From an uncultured Acidimicrobiia bacterium (GTDB lineage: Bacteria > Actinomycetota > Acidimicrobiia > Acidimicrobiales > AC-14), in assembly GCA_963768975.1 (NCBI GenBank), contig CAVYKB010000019.1, forward strand, positions 198,688 to 262,687: a stretch of 64,000 nt of DNA. Reading direction: 5' to 3'. The notes under the pieces were generated by a model, which saw nothing but the letters and a program-made list of their open reading frames with translations, was not told the DNA's origin and did no database searches. Shown piece by piece: positions 48,348 to 58,190 of this stretch. Within the stretch, counting starts at the first letter, position 1; the number at the start of each line of letters is the position of its first letter. The translations under genes and the position numbers were made by a program.

Positions 48348-49078
48348 GTCTCTCCGAAGGCGAGCGCCTCCAGAAGGTGCTGGCCGCCGCCGGCCTCGGG
48401 AGCCGGCGGGTATGTGAGATCCTCATCGACGAGGAGCGGGTCACCGTCAACGGTGAGGTCGCGATCCTGGGCCGGCGGGTCGACCCGGAGACCGACCGCA
48501 TCGAGGTCGACGGCCTGCGCGTGCCGGTGCGGCCGGGCCTGGTGACCTACGTGCTCAACAAGCCGCGAGGCGTGGTGAGCACGGCGAGCGATCCCCAGGG
48601 CCGGCCGACGGTCGTCGAGATGGTCCCCGCCGAGCCTCGCGTCTTCCCGGTCGGCCGCCTCGACACCGACACCGAGGGCCTGCTGCTGCTCACCAACGAC
48701 GGCGATCTCGCCCATCGCCTGACCCACCCGTCCTTCGGTGTCGACAAGGAATACCTGGCTGAGGTGGAGGGCAGCCCCACGCCGGCCGAACTGCGCCGGC
48801 TCCGCCACGGCATCGAGCTGGAGGACGGGATGACGGCGCCGGCCAGGGCGTCGCTGACCGCGCCCGGCGCCGTGCGGCTGGTCATCCACGAGGGTCGCAA
48901 CCGCCAGGTCCGGCGCATGCTGGAAGCGGTTGGCCACCCCGTGAAGCGGCTGGTCCGCACCCGCATCGGCCCGCTGGCCGACCGCCGGCTCCGGCCGGGG
49001 GAGTGGCGGGTGCTGGAGCTGGAGGAGGTGCGCGCCCTCGAAGCGGCGGCCCTGCCCCGCAGTAGATTCGAGGCGTGA
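48344..49078 (+). CDS. rluB: 23S rRNA pseudouridine synthase (RluB/RsuA family) with an N-terminal S4 domain
   Basis: S4 LQKVLAAAGLGSRRVCEILIDEERVTVNG and catalytic PVGRLDTDTEGLLLLTNDG. GTG at 48344 overlaps the scpB stop (GTGA). Confidence 0.85.
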   Translation: MSLSEGERLQKVLAAAGLGSRRVCEILIDEERVTVNGEVAILGRRVDPETDRIEVDGLRVPVRPGLVTYVLNKPRGVVSTASDPQGRPTVVEMVPAEPRVFPVGRLDTDTEGLLLLTNDGDLAHRLTHPSFGVDKEYLAEVEGSPTPAELRRLRHGIELEDGMTAPARASLTAPGAVRLVIHEGRNRQVRRMLEAVGHPVKRLVRTRIGPLADRRLRPGEWRVLELEEVRALEAAALPRSRFEA

Positions 49079-49443
49079 CCCCCGCCGTCCGGGCCCTGCG
49101 AGGGGCGACCACCGTCGACGCCGACACCCCGGAGCAGATCAACGAGCGGGTCGGGGCGCTGGTAAACGAGATGCTGGCCCGCAACGGGGTCGGCAAAGAT
49201 GACCTGATCAGCGTCATCTTCACCGCCACCGACGACGTCACGTCCATGTTCCCGGCTGCCGCCGCCCGCGCCGTCGGGCTGGGCGACGTGCCCCTCCTGT
49301 GCGCCCGCGAACTGGCCATCGTCGGCGGCACCCCCCGCTGCATCCGGGTGCTGATGCACCTGACCACCGAGCGCTCCCGGGCCGAGCTGCGCCATGTGTA
49401 CCTGGCCGGCGCCGAGGGGCTCCGCGATGACCTCCCCATCTAG
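49075..49443 (+). CDS. aroH: monofunctional chorismate mutase, AroH class
   Basis: LRGATTVDADTPEQI... and CIRVLMHLTT...RHVYLAGAEGLRDDL align with the B. subtilis AroH signature. 122 aa. Confidence 0.85.
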   Translation: MTPAVRALRGATTVDADTPEQINERVGALVNEMLARNGVGKDDLISVIFTATDDVTSMFPAAAARAVGLGDVPLLCARELAIVGGTPRCIRVLMHLTTERSRAELRHVYLAGAEGLRDDLPI

Positions 49444-50521
49444 CCGACAGGCAGGCCAGGCTGAGGCGCGCCGGCGGGCGGTCATCGTCGGTACCGGCCT
49501 GATCGGCGGCTCCATCGGGCTCGCCCTCCGCAAGCAGGGCTGGCACGTCACCGGCCGTGACCTCGACGGCCGGCGGGCCGCCCAGGCGCTGGAGCAGGGC
49601 GCGCTCGACGCGGTCGGCGCCGACCCACAGGCCGAGGTCACCTTCGTGTGCGTGCCCGTGTCGTCCATCGCCGAGGAGGCCCGCGCTGCGCTGGCCGCCG
49701 GCGGCGTGGTGACCGACGTCGGCGGCGTCAAGGGACCGGTCGTCGCCGCCGTCGACCATCCCCGCTTCGTCGGCGGCCACCCCATGGCCGGCTCGGAGCA
49801 GGAGGGCATGGACGGCGCCGACCCGTCGCTCTTCGAGGGAGCCACGTGGGTGCTCACGCCCGTCGTGTCGACCGATGCCGAGGCCTACACCCTCGTCCGT
49901 TCGATCGTGACGTCGCTGGGCGCCGACGTGGTGGCGCTGGCGCCCGAGCGCCACGACGAGCTGGTGGCCACCGTCTCGCACGTGCCCCACCTCGCCGCGG
50001 CGACCCTGATGGCCCTGGCCGCCGACGGCGCCACGGAGCAGGGCCCGATGCTGCGGCTGGCCGCCGGCGGCTTCCGGGACATGACCCGCATCGCCGCCGG
50101 CCACCCCGGTATCTGGCCGGACATCTGCGCTGAGAACCGGGACGCCATCGTCGAAGGCCTCGACCGGCTCGTGGCAGCTTTGTCGGCCATGCGTGACCTG
50201 GTGGTGTTGGGGGACCGTCCCGGTTTGCTGGAAAACCTCGAGCGGGCGCGGGCGGCGCGTGTCAACCTTCCGAGCCGCGTGGCCCGTGACACCGCTCTCG
50301 TCGAGATGCGCGTCCCCGTTCCCGACCGTCCGGGCGTACTGGCCGAGATCACCACCCTGCTGGGCGAGCTCGACGTGAACATCGAGGACCTCGAGATCGC
50401 CCACTCCGTCGAGGGCGAGCGGGGCGTGCTGGTGCTGGTGGTGCAGGAGGCGGCGGCCGACGCCACCCGGAGCGCCCTGCTGTCCCGGGGGTTCCACCCG
50501 ACGCTGCGGAAGCTCTCATGA
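49427..50521 (+). CDS. tyrA: prephenate dehydrogenase with a C-terminal ACT domain
   Basis: Rossmann motif AVIVGTGLIGGSIGLAL, PDH domain, C-terminal ACT-like VPDRPGVLAEITTLLGE. Start set at the ATG at 49427 (MTSPSS). Confidence 0.88.
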   Translation: MTSPSSRQAGQAEARRRAVIVGTGLIGGSIGLALRKQGWHVTGRDLDGRRAAQALEQGALDAVGADPQAEVTFVCVPVSSIAEEARAALAAGGVVTDVGGVKGPVVAAVDHPRFVGGHPMAGSEQEGMDGADPSLFEGATWVLTPVVSTDAEAYTLVRSIVTSLGADVVALAPERHDELVATVSHVPHLAAATLMALAADGATEQGPMLRLAAGGFRDMTRIAAGHPGIWPDICAENRDAIVEGLDRLVAALSAMRDLVVLGDRPGLLENLERARAARVNLPSRVARDTALVEMRVPVPDRPGVLAEITTLLGELDVNIEDLEIAHSVEGERGVLVLVVQEAAADATRSALLSRGFHPTLRKLS

Positions 50522-51771
50522 CCTCCTTCACCGTGGAAGGGGGCCGGCCCGTTCGGGGCCACATCGCCGTTCCCGGCGACAAGTCGATCTCCCACCGGGC
50601 CCTGATCGTCGCCGCCCTGGCCGAGGGCACCTCGGTGGTGCGGGGGTTGTCCGACGGTGACGACGTGGCCCGCACCCGGGCGGCGGTCGAGGCCATGGGC
50701 GCCGGCGTCGAGGGGGAGAAGGTCGCCGGCGGGCGCAGCCGCCTCCACGAGCCCGGTGACGTGCTGGACATGGGCAACTCCGGCACCGGCATCCGCCTGC
50801 TCGCCGGCCTGTGCGCCGGCCTGCCGTGGATGACGGTGCTCACCGGCGACGCGTCAATCCGCCGGCGGCCCATGCTGCGTATCCGCAGTCCCTTGCACGA
50901 GATGGGCGCCCGCATCTACACCCGGCGAGGACACTTGGCGCCCCTCGTGATCATGCAGTCCGATCTGCACGGCATCGACGTCCTGACTCAGGTGGCCAGC
51001 GCCCAGGTCAAGTCCGCCATCCTCCTCGCCGGCCTGTCCGCCGAGGGCGAGACCCGGGTGCGGCAGCACGTCGCCACCCGGCCCCACACCGAGGAGCTGC
51101 TGGCCCTGGCCGGCGCCGACATCACCGTGGCCCAAGGCGGCCGCGACGTGCGGCTGCACCCGACCGCGTTGGCCCCGTTCGAGCTCGACGTTCCCGGAGA
51201 CCCGTCGCAGGCCGCGTTCTGGCTGGTGGCCGCCTGCCTGGTGCCCGGCAGCGACGTGGTGGTCGACAACGTCTACCTCCACCCCACCCGTTCGGCCTTC
51301 GTCGACGTCCTGGTCAGAATGGGGGCCGATGTCGAGCGGACGGGGCCGGCGCAGGTGCGGGCCCGTTACTCGCCTGACCTGCACGGCACCGACGTGGGGG
51401 GCGAGGAGATCTCGGGCCTCATCGACGAGATCCCGGTCCTGGCCGTCGCCGCCGCCCTCGCCGAGGGCGATACAACCTTCGGCGACGCCGGCGAGCTCCG
51501 CGTGAAGGAGAGTGACCGTATCGCCACGACCACGGCCGCCCTGGCTGCGCTGGGAGCCCGGTACCAGCTGACGAACGACGGCTTCGTCGTGACCGGGCCG
51601 AACACCCTGCGCGGCGCGCTCACCTCCAGCCATGGCGACCACCGCATCGCCATGGCGCTTGCCGTCGCCGGCCTCGCCGCCGAGGGGACGACCACAATCG
51701 GCGGCTGGGAGGCCGTCGCCACCAGCTACCCCGGCTTCGAGGGCGACCTGGAGCGGCTGTGCGGGTCGTAG
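50518..51771 (+). CDS. aroA: 3-phosphoshikimate 1-carboxyvinyltransferase (EPSP synthase)
   Basis: Motifs PGDKSISHRALI, LDMGNSGTGIRLLAG and DHRIAMA. 417 aa. Confidence 0.95.
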   Translation: MTSFTVEGGRPVRGHIAVPGDKSISHRALIVAALAEGTSVVRGLSDGDDVARTRAAVEAMGAGVEGEKVAGGRSRLHEPGDVLDMGNSGTGIRLLAGLCAGLPWMTVLTGDASIRRRPMLRIRSPLHEMGARIYTRRGHLAPLVIMQSDLHGIDVLTQVASAQVKSAILLAGLSAEGETRVRQHVATRPHTEELLALAGADITVAQGGRDVRLHPTALAPFELDVPGDPSQAAFWLVAACLVPGSDVVVDNVYLHPTRSAFVDVLVRMGADVERTGPAQVRARYSPDLHGTDVGGEEISGLIDEIPVLAVAAALAEGDTTFGDAGELRVKESDRIATTTAALAALGARYQLTNDGFVVTGPNTLRGALTSSHGDHRIAMALAVAGLAAEGTTTIGGWEAVATSYPGFEGDLERLCGS

Positions 51772-52367
51772 CCATCGACGGCCCGGTCGGCTCGGGCAAG
51801 TCGACCGTGGCCAAGGCGGTGGCCGCCCGTCTCGACCTGCCCTACCTGGAGTCGGGGGCGATGTACCGGGTCGTGGCGTGGGCCGCGGTGCAACGGGGCA
51901 TCGACCCCTCGGCCGAGGACGACACCACGAAGCTGGCGGCCGAGCTGGACATGGAGGTGGGCGAGCGGGTCACCGTCGCCGGCGAAGACGTGACCGGGGA
52001 CCTGCGCAGCCCAGCGGTCGGTCGGGCGGTCAGCGCAGTGGCCGCCACCGCCGGCGTTCGCACGGAGCTCGTCCGCCGGCAGCGGGAGTGGGTCGAGGCC
52101 CACGGCGGGGCGGTTGTCGAGGGCCGTGACATCGGCAGCGTGGTCTTCCCCGACGCCGAGGTGAAGATCTTCCTCACCGCCAGCACGGAGGAGCGGGCCC
52201 GCCGGCGGTCGATGGACGAGACCCCCGACGACCTGGCCCGGCGCGACCTCATCGACTCCACCCGGGCCGTCTCGCCGCTGATCGTGCCCCAGGGCGCGGT
52301 GGTCGTCGACACGACGGGCCGCGAGGTCGACGACATCGTCGAGGAGATCGTGGGCCTCCTGCCGTGA
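51759..52367 (+). CDS. cmk: cytidylate kinase
   Basis: P-loop IDGPVGSGKSTVAK, 202 aa. Confidence 0.92.
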   Translation: MRVVAIDGPVGSGKSTVAKAVAARLDLPYLESGAMYRVVAWAAVQRGIDPSAEDDTTKLAAELDMEVGERVTVAGEDVTGDLRSPAVGRAVSAVAATAGVRTELVRRQREWVEAHGGAVVEGRDIGSVVFPDAEVKIFLTASTEERARRRSMDETPDDLARRDLIDSTRAVSPLIVPQGAVVVDTTGREVDDIVEEIVGLLP

Positions 52368-53038
52368 TCGCCTATGCCATCGTCCGCTTCCTGATCTGGC
52401 TGGTGGCCAAGGTCCTGTGGCGCATCAGCTTCGAGGGGTTGGAGAACATCCCGCGCACGGGCGCGTTCGTCATGGCGCCCGTCCACCGGTCCTTCATCGA
52501 CTTCGGCCTGGCGTCGGGCACCACTCGCCGGCCCATGGGCTACATGGGCAAGGAATCTCTCTGGCGGAACAGGTATATGGGGGCCTTCATCACCCACCTG
52601 GGCGCCTATCCCGTCAACCGCGGCGCCCCGGACCGGGAGTCGCTGCGGCGCACGCTGGCCATCCTCGACAGCGGCAAGCCGTTGGTCCTGTTCCCCGAGG
52701 GGACCCGCCGCAGCGGGCCGGTGATCGAGCACCTGCACGAAGGGGCGGCCTATGTGGCGTCGCGGGCCGGCGTGCCCATCATCCCCGTCGGCATCGGGGG
52801 GTCCGAGCGGGCCCTGCCCAAGGGCAAGGCGTTGCCCCGCCTGGTCAGAATCCACATCCTGGTCGGGGAGCCGTTGGTGCCGGCGCCCATCGCCGAGGGG
52901 GCGCGCCACCCGTCGCGCCGGGCGATCAGGGAGCTGACCATCCAACTCCAACACGTCCTCCAGGCTCTTTTCGACCGGGCTCAGCGGACGGCCGGCGTCG
53001 AGGTGCCTGTCAACCAAACCGCGCCGCCAGACGTGTAA
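52364..53038 (+). CDS. plsC: 1-acyl-sn-glycerol-3-phosphate acyltransferase
   Basis: HxxxxD motif in PVHRSFIDF, plus the FPEGTR block. GTGA overlap with cmk. Confidence 0.88.
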   Translation: MIAYAIVRFLIWLVAKVLWRISFEGLENIPRTGAFVMAPVHRSFIDFGLASGTTRRPMGYMGKESLWRNRYMGAFITHLGAYPVNRGAPDRESLRRTLAILDSGKPLVLFPEGTRRSGPVIEHLHEGAAYVASRAGVPIIPVGIGGSERALPKGKALPRLVRIHILVGEPLVPAPIAEGARHPSRRAIRELTIQLQHVLQALFDRAQRTAGVEVPVNQTAPPDV

Positions 53039-53044
53039 CCAGTC

Positions 53045-53554
53045 GTGCGGGAGGACGGAAGTTTCGAGGCGGCGTTTGACGACCTCTTCCCCCGGGCGGT
53101 TCGCCTGGCGAACCGGATGCTCGGCGACCGGGCCGCGGCCGAGGACGTGGCCGCGGAGGCGTTGGCGCGCGCCTACGCCCGGTGGCCCAAGGTCGGCGCT
53201 CTGTCCCACCGGGACGGCTGGGTCCTCAAGGTGGCGACCAACCTGTCGATCGACCGTCTGCGCCGGCGGGTTCCCGAAGTGTGGCCCCAGGTGGAGGCCG
53301 ACTTCGAGGACGGCGTCGAACTGCGCATGGCCCTCAACGCCGCCCTGGTCACGCTGGCCCCGCGCCAGCGGGAGGCGGTGGCCCTGCGGTACCTCGGCGG
53401 GCTGTCAGACCAGGAGGTCGCCCTCGCCCTGGGTATCTCCCTCGGCAGCGTCAAGACGCACATCCATCGCGGCCTGAAAGGCCTGCGCCGCCGGCTCGGT
53501 GCCGGTTTGGAGGAGGTGACTCCCCTTGCCGTGGACGGAATCCCGCTCGCGTGA
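53045..53554 (+). CDS. ECF (group 4) RNA polymerase sigma factor
   Basis: Region 2 FDDLFPRAVRLANRMLGDRAAAEDVAAEALARAYARW. Region 4 LAPRQREAVALRYLGGLSDQEVALALGISLGSVKTHIHRGL. Confidence 0.88.
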   Translation: MREDGSFEAAFDDLFPRAVRLANRMLGDRAAAEDVAAEALARAYARWPKVGALSHRDGWVLKVATNLSIDRLRRRVPEVWPQVEADFEDGVELRMALNAALVTLAPRQREAVALRYLGGLSDQEVALALGISLGSVKTHIHRGLKGLRRRLGAGLEEVTPLAVDGIPLA

Positions 53555-54479
53555 GGAATGGCTGGCCGAGGTGCGGCGGCGCGGGGAGCGCATGCGTCGC
53601 CGGCGCCAGTTCACCATCGCTATCGCCGGCGCGTTCGCGCTGGTCCTGCCGATGAGCGCAGTCGCCGGCTACCTGGCCGGCCGACCCGACCGCGCCATGG
53701 AGCTCTCGGTCGCAGGGCAAGCGACGGCCGGCGGCGCGACGACCGCTCCCGATGACATGGCCATCGGCCGACTGGCGCCGGCCGTCGCACTGCCGACCAC
53801 GACGACCACCATCGCCGAGGTGCACAACCGGCTGACCACGGTCGGTGGCGGCTCCGTGGCGCCGACCGTCCCGCCGATCGACGACCCGGTGGTGCGGCTC
53901 ACGCCGACCTCCGTTCCTCCGGCGGCCGGGAGCGCCGGGATCGGTGGGGCGGCCGCCTCCCCGCTGCTGTCGGCGAACACCCCCCAGGCGTCGTCCGAGC
54001 CGGCGCTGCCGTGCGTGGCGTCGGAGTTCAGGCTGACGGTCACCATGGAGAAGGACGCCTTCGCCGCCGGCGAGAAGGTGAGGGGCTCCTCGGTGTTGGA
54101 GAAGCGATCGCCCGGCACCTGCGCGATGCCGAACTGGTGGATCGAGATCGCGTTCCTGAACAGCGCCGGCACGGAGGTCTCCGAGCTCGTACGCGAGTCC
54201 GGTTCCAGCCAGTCCTTCAACCAGGACCGGAAGACGACCGACTCCTGCCGGGAGGGCGGTGACTGCCGGCGAGTGGTCGAGACCGGGCCCGTCTACACCC
54301 ACACCTTCTACTGGGAGACGCTCGACTGCTCGGCCCCCTACGCCGGACCGGTGGTCCCGGTGGCCCCCGACGGCTCCAACTGCGTGCCTTTCCCTGCCGG
54401 CGGCTACTCGGTGGTCGCCACCTGGACCGGGCCGGGGGCGGGCCCTCCGACGCGCTCGACGTTCAAGATCGGGCTCTGA
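53526..54479 (+). CDS. membrane-anchored protein with a short cytoplasmic N-terminus and a C-terminal extracytoplasmic four-Cys domain (paralog 1 of 3). Its position suggests an atypical anti-sigma factor
   Basis: TTG start with a GGAGGAGG SD; an alternative ATG lies at 53592. The stretch MRRRRQFTIAIAGAFALVLPMSAVAGYLA forms a signal-anchor. Domain pattern ...C...GTCAMP...WETLDCS...NCVPFP...Y..VATWTG. Confidence 0.65.
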   Translation: MPWTESRSREEWLAEVRRRGERMRRRRQFTIAIAGAFALVLPMSAVAGYLAGRPDRAMELSVAGQATAGGATTAPDDMAIGRLAPAVALPTTTTTIAEVHNRLTTVGGGSVAPTVPPIDDPVVRLTPTSVPPAAGSAGIGGAAASPLLSANTPQASSEPALPCVASEFRLTVTMEKDAFAAGEKVRGSSVLEKRSPGTCAMPNWWIEIAFLNSAGTEVSELVRESGSSQSFNQDRKTTDSCREGGDCRRVVETGPVYTHTFYWETLDCSAPYAGPVVPVAPDGSNCVPFPAGGYSVVATWTGPGAGPPTRSTFKIGL

Positions 54480-54489
54480 GAGGCCCACG

Positions 54490-55068
54490 GTGAGGGGGCG
54501 GCGGGTCGAATGGGTGGTCGGCCTGCTGGCGGCCGGCGCCTGGATCGTGGCGATGACGGCCCCTTGGCCTGCCGGCGAGGCGCCGCCCATGCCTCCCGTG
54601 GTGCCGGCGCCGGCGTGGCCGGCGCCCGTGGCCATCGCCGGCCCGAGCATGGCCCCGGAGCGACCACCGACCACGCCGGCGACGCCGGACCTGGCGCCTT
54701 GTCCCCCCGAGGGGCTCCAGATCGACGTCGTCCCGACGAAGGCCACGTTCCTCGCCGGCGACACGGTAGGGGGCATGTTCTTCGTCCAGACCGGCCGCGC
54801 CGTCGGCTGCGCGGTCGCCATGCCGACGTCCTTCCGGATCGAGGAGGTTGCCACCGGCAAGGTGGTCGGCAACGTCGCCGCCACCTCCGAGTACCCGAGC
54901 GCCATCAAGTCGGACGGCTGGACTTACACGAGCACATTCGAGTGGGACCGCCAGGACTGCTCGGGCGCAACCTGCGTCCCGGTCCCGCCTTCCCTGTACC
55001 AGGCGGTGGCCGAGTGGACGGGGGGAAGCCCCTACCGCGGATGGGGAGAGTTCCGCATCGGCGGATGA
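54490..55068 (+). CDS. membrane-anchored four-Cys-domain protein (paralog 2 of 3)
   Basis: VRGRRVEWVVGLLAAGAWIVAMTA anchor and Pro-rich linker. Domain APCPPEG...VGCAVAMP...WDRQDCSGATCVPVPP...Y..VAEWTG. Confidence 0.6.
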   Translation: MRGRRVEWVVGLLAAGAWIVAMTAPWPAGEAPPMPPVVPAPAWPAPVAIAGPSMAPERPPTTPATPDLAPCPPEGLQIDVVPTKATFLAGDTVGGMFFVQTGRAVGCAVAMPTSFRIEEVATGKVVGNVAATSEYPSAIKSDGWTYTSTFEWDRQDCSGATCVPVPPSLYQAVAEWTGGSPYRGWGEFRIGG

Positions 55069-55098
55069 CAGCCACACTGTGAGGTCGTAGGATCACCT

Positions 55099-55761
55099 TT
55101 GGTGATCCCCAGGCGGGTGGCGTTCCTCGGCATCGCGGCGTTGGTCCTGGCCGGCGCCGGCATCGCCGCGGCCGCCACCCACTCCGACGACGACGACACC
55201 CCGGCGGCTCTCGAGCAGCCGGCGACCACGACCACCTCGATGGTGCCCGAGACGACCACGACCGCGCTGGCGACCTCGACGACAGCGCCGGCGCCCTCCA
55301 CCACCGCGGCCACGGGCAGGACGACGACCACGCGGGCCGGCGCCACGACCACCACCAGGGCGAGTACGACAACGACGACGGGGCCGGTCGCCGCCTGCGC
55401 CACCGCTCAGGTCCAGCCTGCGGTGACGACGGACAAGCCGTCCTACGGCATCGGCGAGCCCGTGCGCATCCACAGCACGCTGCACAACCGGTCGGGCAGC
55501 ACCTGCACCTACCCCAGCTTCGTCTTCACCGCCACCATCCTCAGCCCCACCGGAGCGACGGTGACCAGCTTCACCCGCCAGGGCGAGCAGGGTGGTTCGC
55601 TGGGATCGGGCCAGGCCCACGAGGCTTTCGTGACCTGGGAGCGGGTCAGCTGCACATCGGACATCTGCCCGCCCAACGTCGCCGGCGACTACACCGTCTC
55701 GGCCACCTGGAACTTCCCCGGAGGCCCCCACACGGCCACCCGGACGTTCCGCCTCACCTAG
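55099..55761 (+). CDS. secreted/anchored four-Cys-domain protein with a Thr-rich linker (paralog 3 of 3)
   Basis: Signal MVIPRRVAFLGIAALVLAGAGIAAAA and Thr/Ala-rich linker. Domain CATAQ...GSTCTYP...WERVSCTSDICPP...Y..SATWNF. Confidence 0.65.
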   Translation: MVIPRRVAFLGIAALVLAGAGIAAAATHSDDDDTPAALEQPATTTTSMVPETTTTALATSTTAPAPSTTAATGRTTTTRAGATTTTRASTTTTTGPVAACATAQVQPAVTTDKPSYGIGEPVRIHSTLHNRSGSTCTYPSFVFTATILSPTGATVTSFTRQGEQGGSLGSGQAHEAFVTWERVSCTSDICPPNVAGDYTVSATWNFPGGPHTATRTFRLT

Positions 55762-56801
55762 CCGTTGGCGAGGGCGTCGAGCACGTCGCTGGCCGCTCGT
55801 TGGCGGTCCTGGGCGAAGGCCGACCGGGCCGGCGGCGCCGCCCCCAGCGTCACCGACGCCACCGCGTCGAGGGCCATCAGCAGCTCGCGCAGCTCCCGGG
55901 GCGGCGGGAAGTACTCGTCCTCGTTGGTGACGACGACCTCCTCGATGCCCTGGGCCGGGTGCAGCCGGGCGATCACCGACCGGACCAGCTCCTCGGGCGC
56001 CGAGGCGCCGGCGGTCACACCCACGACGCCGGCCAGGTCGTCGGGGAGCTCGTCGGCCCCGTTGACCCGGTAGACCCGGGCGCAGCCGGCGCCCCGCGCC
56101 ACCTTCTCCAGGGCCACGGTGTTCGACGAGTTGGCCGAGCCGATGACCACGATGGCGTCGGCCCGGGCCGCGATCTCGATGAGGGCCGACTGGCGGTTCG
56201 TGGTCGCGAAGCACAGGTCGCTGTTCCCTGGCATCCAGAGGTCGGGGAACCGCTGGCGGGCAGCGTCGAGCACGCCGGCCCAGTCCTGGTGGCTGAGCGT
56301 CGTCTGGGCCAGGAGGGCCACCGGCCCACCCGGATCGGGCAGCGCCGCCAACTGCTCCTCGGACTCCACCAGGTGGATCGAGTCGGGGGCGACGGCCATG
56401 GTTCCGACCGCCTCGTCGTGGCCCTCGTGGCCGACGTAGAGGATCGAGAAGCCCTTGCCCGCTCGCACCTTGACCTCGTGGTGCACCTTGGTGACGAGCG
56501 GGCAGACGGCGTCGACGACGAACCCGCCGCTGGCCCGGGCCGCCTCGACCACCTCAGGGGCCGATCCGTGGGCGCTCAGCATGAGCGGCGCCCCGGGTGG
56601 CACCTCGGACACGTCGTTCACGAACACCACGCCCAGCTCGCGGAACCGGTCGACCACCAGGCGGTTGTGAACGATCTCGTGGTAGCAGTACACCGGCGGC
56701 TCGAACACCCGGACCATCCACCCCAGCGCCTTGATCGCCATCTCCACGCCGGCGCAGAAGCCGCGCGGCGCGGCCAGCAGCACCTTCTCGACGTCCACCA
56801 A
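55758..56801 (-). CDS. ispH: 4-hydroxy-3-methylbut-2-enyl diphosphate reductase
   Basis: LLAAPRGFCAGVEMAI, conserved Cys ligands (C...AVCPLV...CFATTNRQ), SANSSNT motif. 347 aa. Confidence 0.93.
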   Translation of the reverse strand: MVDVEKVLLAAPRGFCAGVEMAIKALGWMVRVFEPPVYCYHEIVHNRLVVDRFRELGVVFVNDVSEVPPGAPLMLSAHGSAPEVVEAARASGGFVVDAVCPLVTKVHHEVKVRAGKGFSILYVGHEGHDEAVGTMAVAPDSIHLVESEEQLAALPDPGGPVALLAQTTLSHQDWAGVLDAARQRFPDLWMPGNSDLCFATTNRQSALIEIAARADAIVVIGSANSSNTVALEKVARGAGCARVYRVNGADELPDDLAGVVGVTAGASAPEELVRSVIARLHPAQGIEEVVVTNEDEYFPPPRELRELLMALDAVASVTLGAAPPARSAFAQDRQRAASDVLDALANG

Positions 56802-56837
56802 TCCAGCCTACCGGCCGGGTACCCGTATCCTGGAGGC

Positions 56838-58190
56838 GTGTCCCTGCCCCGGGTTGTTGCCGTCGCGCCCGGATCGCCCGCGTCGCGGGCCGGGCTGCAG
56901 CCCGGTGACGAGGTGGTGTCGCTGGCCGGCCGCCGGCCCCGCGACGTCATCGAGTGGCGCCTGCTGACCGACGAGGCCGATGTCGACATGGAGCTGCGGC
57001 GGGGCGGCCTCGACTTCGACGTCGTCGTCGCCAAGCACGAGGGCGAGCCGCTGGGCGCCGAGGTCTCCTCGGCCCTGTTCGACAAGGTCCGCACCTGCGA
57101 CAACCACTGCGACTTCTGCTTCATCTACCAACTGCCGCCGGCGCTGCGCCAGAGCCTGTACCTGAAGGACGACGACTACCGCCTGTCCTTCCTCTACGGG
57201 AACTTCACCACCCTGACCCGGTTCACCGAGATTGACCTCGAGCGGGTCGTCACCGAGCGCCTGAGCCCGCTGAACGTCAGCATCCACGCCACGGACCCTG
57301 CGCTGCGGGCCCGCATGCTCCGCAACAAGCGGGGTGCCACCAGCCTGCGCTGGCTGCGGGCCCTGCTCGACCACGGGATCGAGATCCACGGCCAGGTCGT
57401 GGTGTGCCCTGGGGTGAACGACGGCGCCGTCCTCGACGACACGCTCTGCGGCATCCTCGACGAGTACCCCGAGCTGGCGACCGCCTGCATCGTGCCCCTG
57501 GGCGTCAGCCGCTACAACACCGAGCCGGCCATGCGGCCCCACACCGTCGCCGAGGCCCGGGCGGTCGTCGACACGGTCGAGGACTGGCAGGACGTCTTCC
57601 GCTCCGTGCTCGGCCGGCGCCTGGTCTTCGCCGCCGACGAGTACTACCTCCTCGCCGGCCTCCCCTTTCCCGAGGCAGACGCCTACGAGGGTTTCCCCCA
57701 GCACGAGAACGGCATCGGCATGGCCCGGGCCTTCGAGATGGAGCTCCACGGCAAGGTCGAGGCCGAGTCGGGCATCGGCGTACAGCCCGGCTTCTTCGCC
57801 TGGGTCGACGGGGCGCCGGCGGAGGGCTACCGGGCGCCCCGCACGGACGGGTTGATCTCGCTCACCCCTCGCCGGGACGCGCCGGTCGCCGTTCTCACCG
57901 GCGAGTATGGCGCCGCGGTCCTCGAGCCGCTGGTTGCCGACCTCAACGTGCGTGTGCTCCCGGTCCGCAACAACTTCTTCGGTGGGAACATCGGAGTCAC
58001 CGGCCTGCTGGTGGGCCAGGACATCGCCCCCGTCCTGGCCGCCCAGCCCGAGGGCCACCGCTACCTGCTGCCCGACGTCTGCCTTTCCGGGGGCCTGTTC
58101 CTCGACGGCTCCAAGCCCGAGGACCTGCCCCGCCCCGTCGAGATCATCCGGTCCGACGGCATCTCCCTACGTCAGGCCTTGTCACTGTGA
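56838..58190 (+). CDS. PDZ-domain radical SAM protein (DUF512-type)
   Basis: N-terminal PDZ GSPASRAGLQPGDEVVSL, then CDNHCDFCFI (C-x3-C-x2-C). GTG at 56838 is preceded by GGAGG. Confidence 0.8.
   Translation: MSLPRVVAVAPGSPASRAGLQPGDEVVSLAGRRPRDVIEWRLLTDEADVDMELRRGGLDFDVVVAKHEGEPLGAEVSSALFDKVRTCDNHCDFCFIYQLPPALRQSLYLKDDDYRLSFLYGNFTTLTRFTEIDLERVVTERLSPLNVSIHATDPALRARMLRNKRGATSLRWLRALLDHGIEIHGQVVVCPGVNDGAVLDDTLCGILDEYPELATACIVPLGVSRYNTEPAMRPHTVAEARAVVDTVEDWQDVFRSVLGRRLVFAADEYYLLAGLPFPEADAYEGFPQHENGIGMARAFEMELHGKVEAESGIGVQPGFFAWVDGAPAEGYRAPRTDGLISLTPRRDAPVAVLTGEYGAAVLEPLVADLNVRVLPVRNNFFGGNIGVTGLLVGQDIAPVLAAQPEGHRYLLPDVCLSGGLFLDGSKPEDLPRPVEIIRSDGISLRQALSL

What the first reader, a model, noticed from the sequence alone, without database searches (positions are those of the whole stretch)
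53045..55761. ECF sigma factor followed by a tandem triplication of a membrane-anchored four-Cys extracytoplasmic domain
Seen directly. Right after the ECF sigma gene (53045-53554), overlapping its stop codon, come three consecutive plus-strand genes (53526-54479, 54490-55068, 55099-55761). Each encodes an N-terminal signal-anchor or signal peptide, a Pro/Thr/Ala-rich linker and a roughly 130-aa C-terminal domain with the same skeleton: C1 ... C2-x-x-P ... W-[ED]-x-x-x-C3-[ST]-x(3-10)-C4-x-P ... G-x-Y-x-[VS]-[AV]-x-W-[TN]. The specific matches are CVASEF/GTCAMP/WETLDCS/NCVPFP, CPPEG/VGCAVAMP/WDRQDCSGATCVPVPP, and CATAQ/GSTCTYP/WERVSCTSDICPP. The first gene sits where an anti-sigma factor would be. 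Its cytoplasmic N-terminus is only about 25 residues, shorter than a classical anti-sigma domain. I cannot match the domain to a characterised family from sequence alone, though it may correspond to an actinobacterial DUF. The arrangement suggests a sigma-linked family of envelope proteins, possibly sensors or anti-sigma factors, that expanded by local duplication.
Basis: partly seen in the sequence, partly recalled or inferred. Interest (0 to 1): 0.72.

Follow-up and report, generated by a model that had tools for sequence, protein, structure and literature searches.

The report
ECF sigma with short-tailed membrane partner
This is a stress-type (ECF) sigma factor gene with its own promoter, followed by a membrane protein that probably holds the sigma in check through an unusually short 28-residue tail, and by two tail-less copies of that protein's outer domain; it fits a kind of system already catalogued by computer surveys, though nobody has tested it.

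Summary
An ECF sigma gene (53045-53554) is followed by three plus-strand genes: A 53526-54479, B 54490-55068 and C 55099-55761. Each encodes one N-terminal hydrophobic helix, a Pro/Thr/Ala-rich linker and a Cys-paired beta-sandwich. The three domains are homologous (hhalign 99.7%) and are remote relatives of Pfam DUF4232, whose function is unknown. The locus keeps the same chromosomal position (tyrA-aroA-cmk-plsC-sigma-A-...-ispH-der) in Acidimicrobiales, with one to three domain genes.

Three points are new. First, the 28-residue cytoplasmic tail of A is 84% identical across homologues, whereas its outer domain is 40% identical. The tail recurs fused to META, PD40, PknH_C-like and SecDF-head outer domains, and 5 of 6 such genes examined overlap the end of a related ECF sigma gene. 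Second, an ECF-type promoter, GTCAACC-N16-CGT, lies directly upstream of the sigma gene in the window and in 13 related loci. Third, B is a tail-less copy of the ancestral anti-sigma outer domain, and C has its own conserved sigma70-like promoter.

Best reading: a self-activating sigma/anti-sigma pair of the actinobacterial ECF38/39 type, with a minimal single-helix anti-sigma tail. No binding or inhibition has been shown.

The parts
53009..53034 (+). ECF-type promoter GTCAACC-N16-CGT. The -35 element is CAACC and the -10 element is CGTGT. It lies inside the last codons of plsC and ends 10 nt before the sigma GTG.
   Evidence: The exact pattern occurs once in the 64-kb window. It occurs once in each of 13 related loci, always directly upstream of the sigma gene on the same strand. 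This includes the non-syntenic loci L012 and L016, where it is not in plsC. L019 carries a one-mismatch version. The motif resembles the CAACC-Xn-CGTC reported for ECF39 (bioRxiv 10.1101/2019.12.11.873521 supplement).
53045..53554 (+). ECF sigma factor, 169 aa, containing sigma2 and sigma4 only.
   Evidence: Pfam r2 and r4_2. The closest NCBIfam model is TIGR02983 SigE-family at 130.7 bits, below its 141.55 cutoff. PDB sequence matches are SigW 3.5e-18 and SigE 6e-16. Identity is 79-98% in the syntenic loci.
53526..53609 (+). Gene A residues 1-28, the cytoplasmic tail MPWTESRSREEWLAEVRRRGERMRRRRQ. This is the proposed sigma-binding element. It overlaps the sigma 3' end by 29 nt.
   Evidence: Mean pairwise identity is 84% across 38 homologues, against 35-44% for the rest of the protein. 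AlphaFold predicts a helix from residue 9 that runs on into the membrane helix, with pLDDT 84-87. A profile search finds only 65 cluster representatives among 1.84 billion proteins.
53610..53681 (+). Gene A residues 29-52, a single transmembrane helix with an invariant Pro42.
   Evidence: KD19 is 2.09 at residues 29-47. P42 is invariant in alignments A2 and A4.
53682..53999 (+). Gene A residues 53-158, a disordered Pro/Thr/Ala/Gly-rich linker with two conserved islands (TTTT-EVH-R and DDPVV-R).
   Evidence: pLDDT is below 50. The islands are visible in alignment A2.
54000..54479 (+). Gene A residues 159-317 plus the stop codon: an extracytoplasmic Ig-like beta-sandwich, a remote DUF4232 relative, with six Cys and two inserted loops.
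54490..55068 (+). Gene B, 192 aa: signal-anchor, Pro-rich linker and a four-Cys domain (54688-55065). It has no cytoplasmic tail.
   Evidence: GAGG lies 7 nt before the GTG start. A 192-aa gene is called independently in L008. The domain is 62-65% identical to the outer domain of the tail-bearing A proteins of L003 and L007.
55065..55093 (+). Sigma70-like promoter ATGACA-17-TAGGAT directly before gene C. It probably gives a leaderless or near-leaderless transcript.
   Evidence: It is the only promoter-like site in 49000-57000. The block TGACAaCCAC...GAGGTCgTAGGnT is conserved upstream of the C-type gene in 9 loci, although the upstream gene differs.
55099..55761 (+). Gene C, 220 aa (219 if it starts at GTG 55102): a conserved signal-anchor, an Asp run, a Thr-rich linker and a four-Cys domain (55384-55758).

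Best explanation
The locus encodes a self-activating ECF sigma factor and its cognate single-pass membrane regulator, gene A, which most likely acts as an anti-sigma factor.

Proposed mechanism, with the status of each step:
1. Shown: the sigma gene is preceded by a conserved ECF-type promoter (GTCAACC-N16-CGT). Gene A overlaps the sigma gene's 3' end, so the two are made together.
2. Inferred: the 28-residue cytoplasmic tail of A is one amphipathic helix (W12, L13, V16 face) that continues into the membrane helix. It holds the sigma at the membrane and keeps it off RNA polymerase.
3. Shown as anatomy, function inferred: outside the membrane, a long disordered Pro/Thr/Ala linker carries a disulfide-stabilised Ig-like DUF4232-type domain that serves as the input module.
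4. Inferred by analogy with RseA/RsiW-type regulated proteolysis: an envelope cue leads to removal of the outer part. Intramembrane cleavage follows, which the invariant helix-breaking Pro42 would favour. The tail is then degraded and the sigma is released to amplify its own operon.
5. B and C are membrane-anchored or secreted copies of the outer domain without the tail, so they cannot hold the sigma. The proposal is that they modulate the input, by competing for or presenting the same ligand or protease, or by pairing with the outer domain of A. C is made from its own housekeeping-type promoter.
For: Pairing of tail and sigma:
- The tail is 84% identical across homologues whose outer domains are 40% identical.
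- A profile of the tail plus membrane helix finds 65 cluster representatives in 1.84 billion proteins.
- Distant hits keep RSRDELL-x-V-RRG-x-LRRRRR plus a membrane helix, but carry META, PD40 propeller, PknH_C-like, SecDF_P1_head or PKD/DUF11-like outer domains.
- Five of six such genes looked up directly follow, and overlap, a gene whose product matches the window sigma: 51-66% identity in four (called as Sigma70_r2/r4 genes) and 33% in the fifth, a contig-end fragment (L014) known only from tblastn, E 5e-10. The contexts are otherwise unrelated.

Autoregulation:
- The promoter motif is unique in the window and sits upstream of the sigma in 13 loci, including intergenic positions in non-syntenic loci.

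No competing regulator:
- The neighbouring genes are tyrA, aroA, cmk, plsC, ispH, a DUF512 radical-SAM gene and der. None has an anti-sigma, kinase or two-component domain.

Outer domain and disulfides:
- Two high-confidence beta-sandwich models share their best structural matches.
- Cys counts per domain are always even: 2, 4 or 6. C3 and C4 are lost together, the extra pair in A-type domains is gained together, and almost no Cys lies outside the domain.

Literature:
- Actinobacterial ECF38/39/51/222 groups have a putative one-helix anti-sigma in the +1 position with no Pfam domain and with variable sensing domains, including WD40 propellers (PMC7826278; its bioRxiv supplement).
Against: - No binding or inhibition has been tested. 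The inference rests on co-occurrence and conservation.
- Twenty-eight residues is shorter than any structurally defined anti-sigma domain. Class I is a three-helix bundle plus a fourth helix, class II a two-helix clamp and class III three helices (PMC6101532).
- The tail matches no solved structure by sequence and no Pfam or NCBIfam family.
- One tail-bearing protein (P0173, META type) is not next to a sigma gene.
- In locus L003 the sigma gene is reduced to a 75-aa in-frame remnant while A is intact. This could be a MAG assembly artefact, or it could mean that A has a role without the sigma.
- No site-1 or site-2 protease was identified here, and no signal is known.
- The roles assigned to B and C are speculative.
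- The promoter was recognised by conservation only. No transcription start was mapped.
Confidence: 0.65

Rival explanations
1. Gene A is a sigma-associated membrane protein but not an inhibitor. It could be a co-activator or membrane tether required for sigma activity. Alternatively it is simply the first gene of the sigma's regulon, and its conserved tail binds some other cytoplasmic partner such as a protease adaptor, kinase or divisome protein.
For: The tail is too short for any known anti-sigma fold. A stays intact in L003, where the sigma is a remnant. One tail-bearing gene lacks an adjacent sigma. [quoted passage not shown]
Against: The tail and the sigma travel together through changes of outer domain and of genomic context. 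Four of six distant cases examined are paired with sigma paralogues of 51-66% identity, and a fifth with a 33%-identical fragment. The sigma (79-98% identity) and the tail (84%) are both far more conserved than the rest of A. Overlapping, co-directional +1 genes are the standard arrangement for anti-sigma factors.
Confidence: 0.17
2. A, B and C are ordinary envelope proteins, such as structural or adhesive Ig-like proteins or protease inhibitors of the BsuPI/alpha-2-macroglobulin MG type. They merely lie next to, or are transcribed by, the sigma factor. The domain family rather than signalling is the point of the locus.
Confidence: 0.13
3. The three-gene pattern is an artefact of ORF calling in 72% GC DNA. 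Low-complexity Pro/Thr/Ala stretches would be mistaken for linkers, with chance Cys motifs.
For: Many long spurious ORFs occur on both strands of this region.
Against: GC3 is 0.88-0.94 in the stated frames. There are dozens of full-length homologues. Independent gene calls agree. The fold predictions are confident. Profile-profile E is 4e-26.
Confidence: 0.01

Closest known systems
Actinobacterial ECF38/ECF39/ECF51/ECF222 sigma factors with a +1 single-helix putative anti-sigma (Staron 2009; Casas-Pastor 2021, PMC7826278)
   Same: It is an actinobacterial ECF sigma. The +1 gene is co-directional, has one transmembrane helix, has no Pfam anti-sigma domain and carries interchangeable outer sensing domains (WD40/PD40 propellers are named there and found here). 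The predicted promoter has CAACC at -35 and CGT(C) at -10. Several ECF38 subgroups also sit in housekeeping contexts.
   Different: Group membership could not be computed here because ECF Hub models were not available. The cmk/plsC/ispH context is not among those listed for any group in the supplement. DUF4232 is not mentioned there. The specific 28-residue tail family appears confined to Acidimicrobiales-like genomes. None of these anti-sigma candidates has been tested experimentally.
Streptomyces coelicolor sigE-cseA-cseB-cseC (sigmaE, founding ECF; PMC6767563)
   Same: TIGR02983 (SigE family), whose name points to Streptomyces sigmaE-type factors (from memory), is the closest NCBIfam model to the window sigma. 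In that operon the sigma gene is followed directly by a gene for an extracytoplasmic, membrane-attached protein of unknown function (CseA) that dampens sigma expression. The -35 AAC is shared.
   Different: There is no two-component system here. The sigE promoter there is not sigmaE-dependent, whereas here an ECF-type promoter precedes the sigma. CseA is a lipoprotein, whereas A, B and C have no lipobox Cys and A has a conserved cytoplasmic tail. Sequence relatedness to CseA was not tested.
Class I, II and III anti-sigma domains (RseA/RsrA/RsiW/RskA; CnrY/NepR; RsbN)
   Same: The proposed job is the same: bind sigma2/sigma4 of an ECF sigma and block core binding. The membrane-anchored architecture with an outer sensor resembles RseA, RsiW and RskA.
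   Different: The cytoplasmic part is 28 residues and is predicted to be a single helix. The known classes are a four-helix domain, a two-helix clamp and a three-helix domain. There is no HxxxCxxC zinc motif, and no Pfam, NCBIfam or PDB sequence match.
Pfam DUF4232 (PF14016), uncharacterised actinobacterial domain
   Same: Eight of 38 A homologues match, and two exceed the gathering score. One C-family member scores 21.8 bits. The size and the N-terminal Cys start of the domain agree.
   Different: The three window proteins give no hit at E of 1 or less, so the link is by transitive homology. The full-text library holds only two passing mentions of DUF4232 and no functional study.
BsuPI / alpha-2-macroglobulin MG2 / arrestin-N Ig-like sandwiches
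   Different: Identity is 17% or less. No thioester, bait region or inhibitor motif was identified. This is a fold resemblance only.

Membership tests
ECF (group 4) sigma-70 factors | Sigma2 and sigma4 domains only, about 170-200 aa, no sigma1.1 or sigma3 | tested here: met
   169 aa. Pfam Sigma70_r2 (residues 14-75) and Sigma70_r4_2 (residues 95-145). TIGR02937 scores 73.7 bits against a cutoff of 42.9.
NCBIfam TIGR02983, SigE-family sigma (Streptomyces type) | Score above the curated cutoff of 141.55 bits | tested here: not met
   130.7 bits. It is the best-scoring model but falls below the cutoff, so it is the nearest family, not a member by NCBI's rule.
ECF38/ECF39-type group (ECF Hub classification) | Score above the group HMM threshold | not testable with these tools
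   The group HMMs are not available. Only thresholds are listed in the supplement.
ECF38/ECF39-type group (ECF Hub classification) | +1 co-directional gene with one transmembrane helix and no anti-sigma Pfam domain; promoter CAACC-Xn-CGTC | tested here: met
   A overlaps the sigma by 29 nt and has one transmembrane helix. It has no Pfam hit. The motif GTCAACC-N16-CGTGT is conserved. The -10 reads CGTG/CGTT rather than CGTC.
Anti-sigma factor (functional class) | Binds its cognate sigma and inhibits transcription | not testable with these tools
   This needs a binding or reporter assay, or a multimer prediction. Only co-occurrence and conservation are available.
Class I anti-sigma domain (ASDI; zf-HC2, RskA, RseA_N types) | Cytoplasmic three-helix bundle plus a fourth helix, about 80-90 residues | tested here: not met
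   The cytoplasmic segment is 28 residues with a single predicted helix. There is no Pfam, NCBIfam or PDB match.
Class II anti-sigma domain (CnrY/NepR) | Two-helix clamp around the sigma | tested here: not met
   Only one helix of about 20 cytoplasmic residues is predicted before the membrane.
Pfam DUF4232 (PF14016) | HMM score above the gathering cutoff (27 bits) | tested here: inconclusive
   Window A, B and C give no hit at E of 1 or less. Homologues P0019 (29.2 bits) and P0029 (28.8 bits) pass. Eight of 38 hit at E of 0.1 or less. The A and C families are linked at 99.7% by hhalign.
Lipoprotein (CseA-like) | Lipobox with Cys at the end of the signal peptide | tested here: not met
   No Cys lies before the domain in window A, B or C, or in 35/38 A and 35/37 C homologues.
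BsuPI / MG2 protease-inhibitor domains | Significant sequence match to PF12690 or PF01835 | tested here: not met
   Only sub-threshold matches were found (E 0.011-0.19, bits below the cutoffs). The similarity is at fold level only.

The most novel reading that the evidence does not exclude
[quoted passage not shown] This class would be modular, since the same tail serves DUF4232, META, PD40, PknH_C-like and SecDF-head sensors. In this lineage, duplication would also have produced a tail-less copy of the sensor (B). B would act as a decoy or co-receptor, adding a layer of ECF control that has not been described.
Probability: 0.3. Interest if true: 0.65.

Novelty: new variant of a known kind. 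Interest (0 to 1): 0.48.

Why it matters
ECF sigma factors are the largest family of bacterial alternative sigma factors. For most actinobacterial groups the presumed anti-sigma partner has no recognisable anti-sigma domain and has never been tested. This locus offers a clean, compact test case with four usable parts:
- a 169-aa sigma;
- a defined candidate promoter;
- a 28-residue candidate inhibitory peptide with obvious residues to mutate (W12, L13, V16, R19, G20);
- natural variants in which the sensor domain has been swapped or detached.

If the tail binds the sigma, it would define the smallest known anti-sigma module, which is of interest for synthetic orthogonal switches. It would also give the first functional context for DUF4232. 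If the tail does not bind, the locus remains an ordinary conserved hypothetical cluster in uncultured Acidimicrobiales.

Tried and rejected
- Direct Pfam and NCBIfam scans of A, B and C gave nothing usable. The only matches were Arrestin_C at 0.053 and GltJ at 0.019, both dismissed as noise.
- An exact-sequence look-up of window protein A in the contig index found nothing, so the source record could not be named. The cluster look-up gave no names either.
- The AFDB Foldseek library was unavailable, so I could not check whether the models match AFDB entries annotated as DUF4232.
- A third homologue search, using a profile of the domain only (A6), returned just the same Acidimicrobiales family. 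It did not reach canonical DUF4232 proteins, so I could not test whether DUF4232 is fused to classical anti-sigma domains elsewhere.
- The strict ECF39 pattern CAACC-N14-19-CGTC had no site near the sigma. Its 12 matches were not above chance (5.9 expected). The real motif has CGTG/CGTT and was found by aligning upstream regions.
- No intrinsic terminator-like site was found in 49000-57000.
- A phmmer search of the tail plus membrane helix against PDB sequences gave only a chance CbiM match, E 3.4.
- The supplements of the ECF reclassification paper contain no DUF4232 or PF14016 entry, and no group with a cmk/plsC/ispH context.
- The top Foldseek hit, AvmM (7fe5), has TM 0.36 and rmsd 12 A and was not pursued.
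- The idea that the element upstream of C is a second ECF-type promoter was rejected. The CAACC-to-CGT spacing there is 12 nt rather than 16, and the window copy reads CAGCC.
- Some C homologues carry a precomputed PF25929 label, but that family did not appear among the matches in the Pfam copy searched, so it could not be resolved.
Full report
**What is in the sequence.**
- The window is about 72% GC, so spurious ORFs abound on both strands. The four stated frames, however, have third-position GC of 0.88-0.94, as the flanking plsC gene does.
- Independent gene calls on metagenomic contigs carrying an 88%-identical gene A give the same four genes (169, 318, 192 and 224 aa) with the same 29-nt sigma/A overlap. 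A contig with a 51%-identical A gives 169, 313, 195 and 225 aa.
- The first product is a bona fide ECF sigma. Pfam finds Sigma70_r2 and Sigma70_r4_2. The superfamily model TIGR02937 is passed. The nearest specific model is TIGR02983 (SigE family), at 130.7 bits against a cutoff of 141.55. The closest solved relatives are SigW and SigE.

**The three downstream products are paralogues.**
- Each has one N-terminal hydrophobic segment, a Pro/Thr/Ala-rich linker and a C-terminal Cys-containing domain.
- Pairwise BLASTP E-values are 4e-12 (A-C), 5e-8 (A-B) and 1e-3 (B-C).
- A profile of 38 A homologues aligns to a profile of 37 C homologues with 99.7% probability and E 4.4e-26.
- AlphaFold models built from these alignments give beta-sandwiches with pLDDT above 90 and the same nine-strand order: A residues 160-317 and C residues 98-220.
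- B was not modelled. It is 50-65% identical to outer domains that are part of the A alignment.
- The window holds only these three copies and one copy of the sigma.

**Domain identity.**
- None of the three window proteins hits Pfam or NCBIfam.
- Among the A homologues, 7 of 50 carry a precomputed PF14016 (DUF4232) label.
- A direct scan finds PF14016 in 8 of 38. P0019 (29.2 bits) and P0029 (28.8 bits) are above the 27-bit gathering score.
- DUF4232 has no functional literature in the library searched, only two incidental mentions.

**Disulfides.** Coordinates are not returned by the structure tool, so Cys-Cys distances could not be measured. The Cys bookkeeping is nevertheless telling.
- Every domain has an even number of Cys: 27 with four and 11 with six in the A family, and 35 with four and 2 with two in the C family.
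- The two C-family proteins with two Cys have lost C3 and C4 together.
- The A-type insert gains two Cys together.
- There is almost no Cys outside the domain.
- This supports C1-C2, C3-C4 and insert-pair disulfides in an extracytoplasmic domain.
- The window's A domain therefore has six Cys, not four, and is 159 aa because of two inserted loops.

**Conserved context.**
- A genome scan with the A alignment found seven loci, all in Acidimicrobiales or Acidimicrobiia MAGs.
- All have the order tyrA-aroA-cmk-plsC-sigma-A-(paralogues)-ispH(convergent)-DUF512 radical SAM-der.
- The sigma is 79-98% identical across these loci, as conserved as the housekeeping neighbours. A is only 32-38% identical in the seven MAG loci.
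- No neighbour has an anti-sigma, kinase or two-component domain.

**The paralogy is old and the copy number varies.**
- After the sigma there is one domain gene in L005. There are two in L002, L003, L004, L006 and L007. There are three in the window, L008-L011 and L001.
- All-against-all comparison of the domains shows that window B's nearest relatives outside its own clade are the outer domains of the tail-bearing A proteins of L007 (65%), L003 (62%) and L005 (50%). Window A is only 28% identical to B.
- The simplest history is that the ancestral A gene duplicated. The downstream copy (B) kept the ancestral outer domain and a membrane anchor but lost the cytoplasmic tail. The upstream copy kept the tail while its outer domain diverged and acquired two loops and an extra Cys pair.
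- The C-type genes fall into two groups. True C orthologues are 60-94% identical and occur in the window, L008, L011, L001 and L007. A second 'x' type occurs in L001, L002, L003, L004 and L006.

**The tail of A is the key feature.**
- In the alignment of 38 A homologues the first 28 residues (MPWTESRSRdEWLAEVRRRGERiRRRRr) are nearly invariant.
- Mean pairwise identity is 84% for the tail, 44% for the membrane helix, 35% for the linker and 40% for the outer domain.
- AlphaFold predicts one helix from residue 9 to 50, so the tail helix continues into the membrane helix, with pLDDT 84-87.
- An HMM of the first 62 positions, searched against 1.84 billion cluster representatives, found only 65 proteins at E of 1e-3 or less and 36 at 1e-10 or less. 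The match is always at the N-terminus.
- The more distant hits retain RSRDELL-x-V-RRG-x-LRRRRR plus a membrane helix but carry different outer domains. These are META (P0173, P0185), a PD40 beta-propeller (P0184), a PknH_C-like domain (P0181, sub-threshold), SecDF_P1_head (P0187), PKD/DUF11-like domains (P0163, P0171, P0175, weak hits) and further DUF4232-like domains.
- Six of these were looked up in their contigs. Five directly follow, and overlap by 4-17 nt, a gene whose product matches the window sigma. In four the product is 51-66% identical and the gene is called with Sigma70_r2/r4. In the fifth (L014) it is a 33%-identical contig-end fragment recognised only by tblastn. The neighbourhoods are otherwise unrelated. 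The exception is the META protein P0173.
- A small conserved cytoplasmic module that stays paired with one sigma lineage while its outer domain is exchanged is what is expected of the sigma-binding part of a membrane anti-sigma factor.

**Promoters.**
- Aligning the DNA upstream of the sigma genes revealed GTCAACC-N16-CGT(G/T)T at 53009-53034, ending 10 nt before the sigma GTG.
- The exact pattern occurs once in the 64-kb window.
- It occurs once in each of 13 loci, always just upstream of the sigma on the same strand.
- In the syntenic loci it lies in the last codons of plsC. In L016 it is intergenic, after a CoA-transferase gene, and in L012 it precedes the sigma on an unrelated contig. It is therefore not a by-product of plsC coding. 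L019 has a one-mismatch version.
- The motif agrees with the CAACC-Xn-CGTC and AACC-Xn-TC promoters predicted for ECF39 and ECF38, and with the AAC / TC elements of S. coelicolor sigmaE promoters (PMC6767563).
- This supports autoregulation. No transcription start was mapped.
- Separately, the only sigma70-like site in 49000-57000 is ATGACA-17-TAGGAT at 55065-55093, directly before gene C. The block TGACAaCCAC...GAGGTCgTAGGnT is conserved before the C-type gene in nine loci, even though the upstream gene differs.
- C therefore probably has its own housekeeping-type promoter and a leaderless start at GTG 55102. This fits the 219-aa database entry.
- B follows A after 10 nt, with a GAGG ribosome-binding site, and is probably co-transcribed with sigma-A.

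**Mechanism proposed.**
- Shown: a conserved sigma/A pair with overlapping genes, an ECF-type promoter, a near-invariant short tail, modular outer domains, and tail-less paralogues.
- Inferred: the tail binds and sequesters the sigma. An envelope signal acting on the DUF4232-type domain or on the linker leads to proteolytic removal of A, and the freed sigma amplifies its own operon.
- The invariant Pro42 in the membrane helix is the kind of helix-destabilising residue that site-2 proteases need in substrates such as RseA and SREBP. That requirement is established knowledge and was not tested here.
- The two conserved islands in the linker (TTTT-EVH-R and DDPVV-R) are candidate recognition or cleavage sites.
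- B and C cannot hold the sigma. I propose they modulate the input as decoys or partners. This is the weakest step.

**Comparison with what is known.**
- The arrangement belongs to the kind catalogued in silico for actinobacterial ECF38, ECF39, ECF51 and ECF222. There, a +1 gene encodes a putative anti-sigma with one transmembrane helix, no Pfam domain and sometimes PASTA or WD40 sensing domains. The authors note that function is not guaranteed.
- Formal group membership could not be computed.
- The tail does not meet the definitions of class I, II or III anti-sigma domains.
- It differs from sigE-cseABC of Streptomyces in three ways. There is no two-component system, it has an ECF-type promoter before the sigma, and it has no lipoprotein.

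**Verdict.**
- The finding is a new variant of a known, computationally predicted kind of system.
- The tandem domain copies are a secondary feature.
- The more valuable lead is the 28-residue tail as a possible minimal anti-sigma module, together with a defined promoter and natural domain-swap variants. These make the hypothesis directly testable.
- Interest is moderate at 0.48, because nothing here contradicts expectation for ECF systems and no function has been demonstrated.

Noticed in passing
window 55065-55102; also L001-L004, L006-L008 and L011 upstream of the C-type gene: A strongly conserved sigma70-like promoter block (TGACAaCCAC-N-GAGGTCgTAGGnT) lies directly before gene C. Its TGA is the stop codon of the preceding gene. 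Spacing to the GTG suggests a leaderless mRNA.
   Followed up: partly
window 53009-53038 (end of plsC): The last codons of plsC (V-N-Q ... D-V-stop) double as the -35 and -10 elements of the sigma promoter. The variable 14-16 nt between the two conserved blocks code for a variable plsC C-terminal tail.
   Followed up: partly
L003 5802-6029 (JAHFUP010000022.1): The sigma gene here is a 75-aa in-frame remnant lacking most of sigma2 and the start of sigma4. The downstream A gene, with its conserved tail, is intact. This is either a real loss or a MAG assembly collapse.
   Followed up: partly
window 53682-53999 (A linker); alignment A2 columns about 140-215: Two short conserved islands (TTTT-EVH-R-hydrophobic-x-x-NG and PP-x-DDPVV-R) sit in an otherwise disordered and variable linker. 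They are candidate cleavage, glycosylation or partner-binding motifs.
   Followed up: no
window 55117-55200 (C residues 7-34): The signal-anchor of C (AFLGIAALvLAGAGIAAAAT) and the following DDDD-TPAALEQP are conserved far better than a cleavable signal peptide usually is. The helix has small-residue (G/A) packing motifs. This suggests a retained membrane helix that may pair with another helix.
   Followed up: no
window 55758-56801 (minus strand) and 55099-55761: ispH converges on gene C, and the two stop codons overlap by 4 nt. No terminator-like structure was found between them.
   Followed up: no
window 49394-53038: tyrA, aroA, cmk and plsC overlap one another by 4-13 nt, and plsC ends 6 nt before the sigma. 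The sigma operon is thus also positioned for read-through from a housekeeping operon. In L008 a chorismate mutase and a pseudouridine synthase lie further upstream.
   Followed up: no
proteins P0080, P0091, P0103 and P0112 (C homologues): These carry a precomputed Pfam label, PF25929. That family did not appear among the matches (E<=1) when these proteins were scanned against the Pfam copy, so it could not be identified.
   Followed up: partly
L001 2112-2564: An extra 'x-type' domain gene lies between A and C. It has only two Cys (C3 and C4 absent), and the ORF as listed has no hydrophobic N-terminus. It may be truncated or may start upstream in another frame.
   Followed up: no
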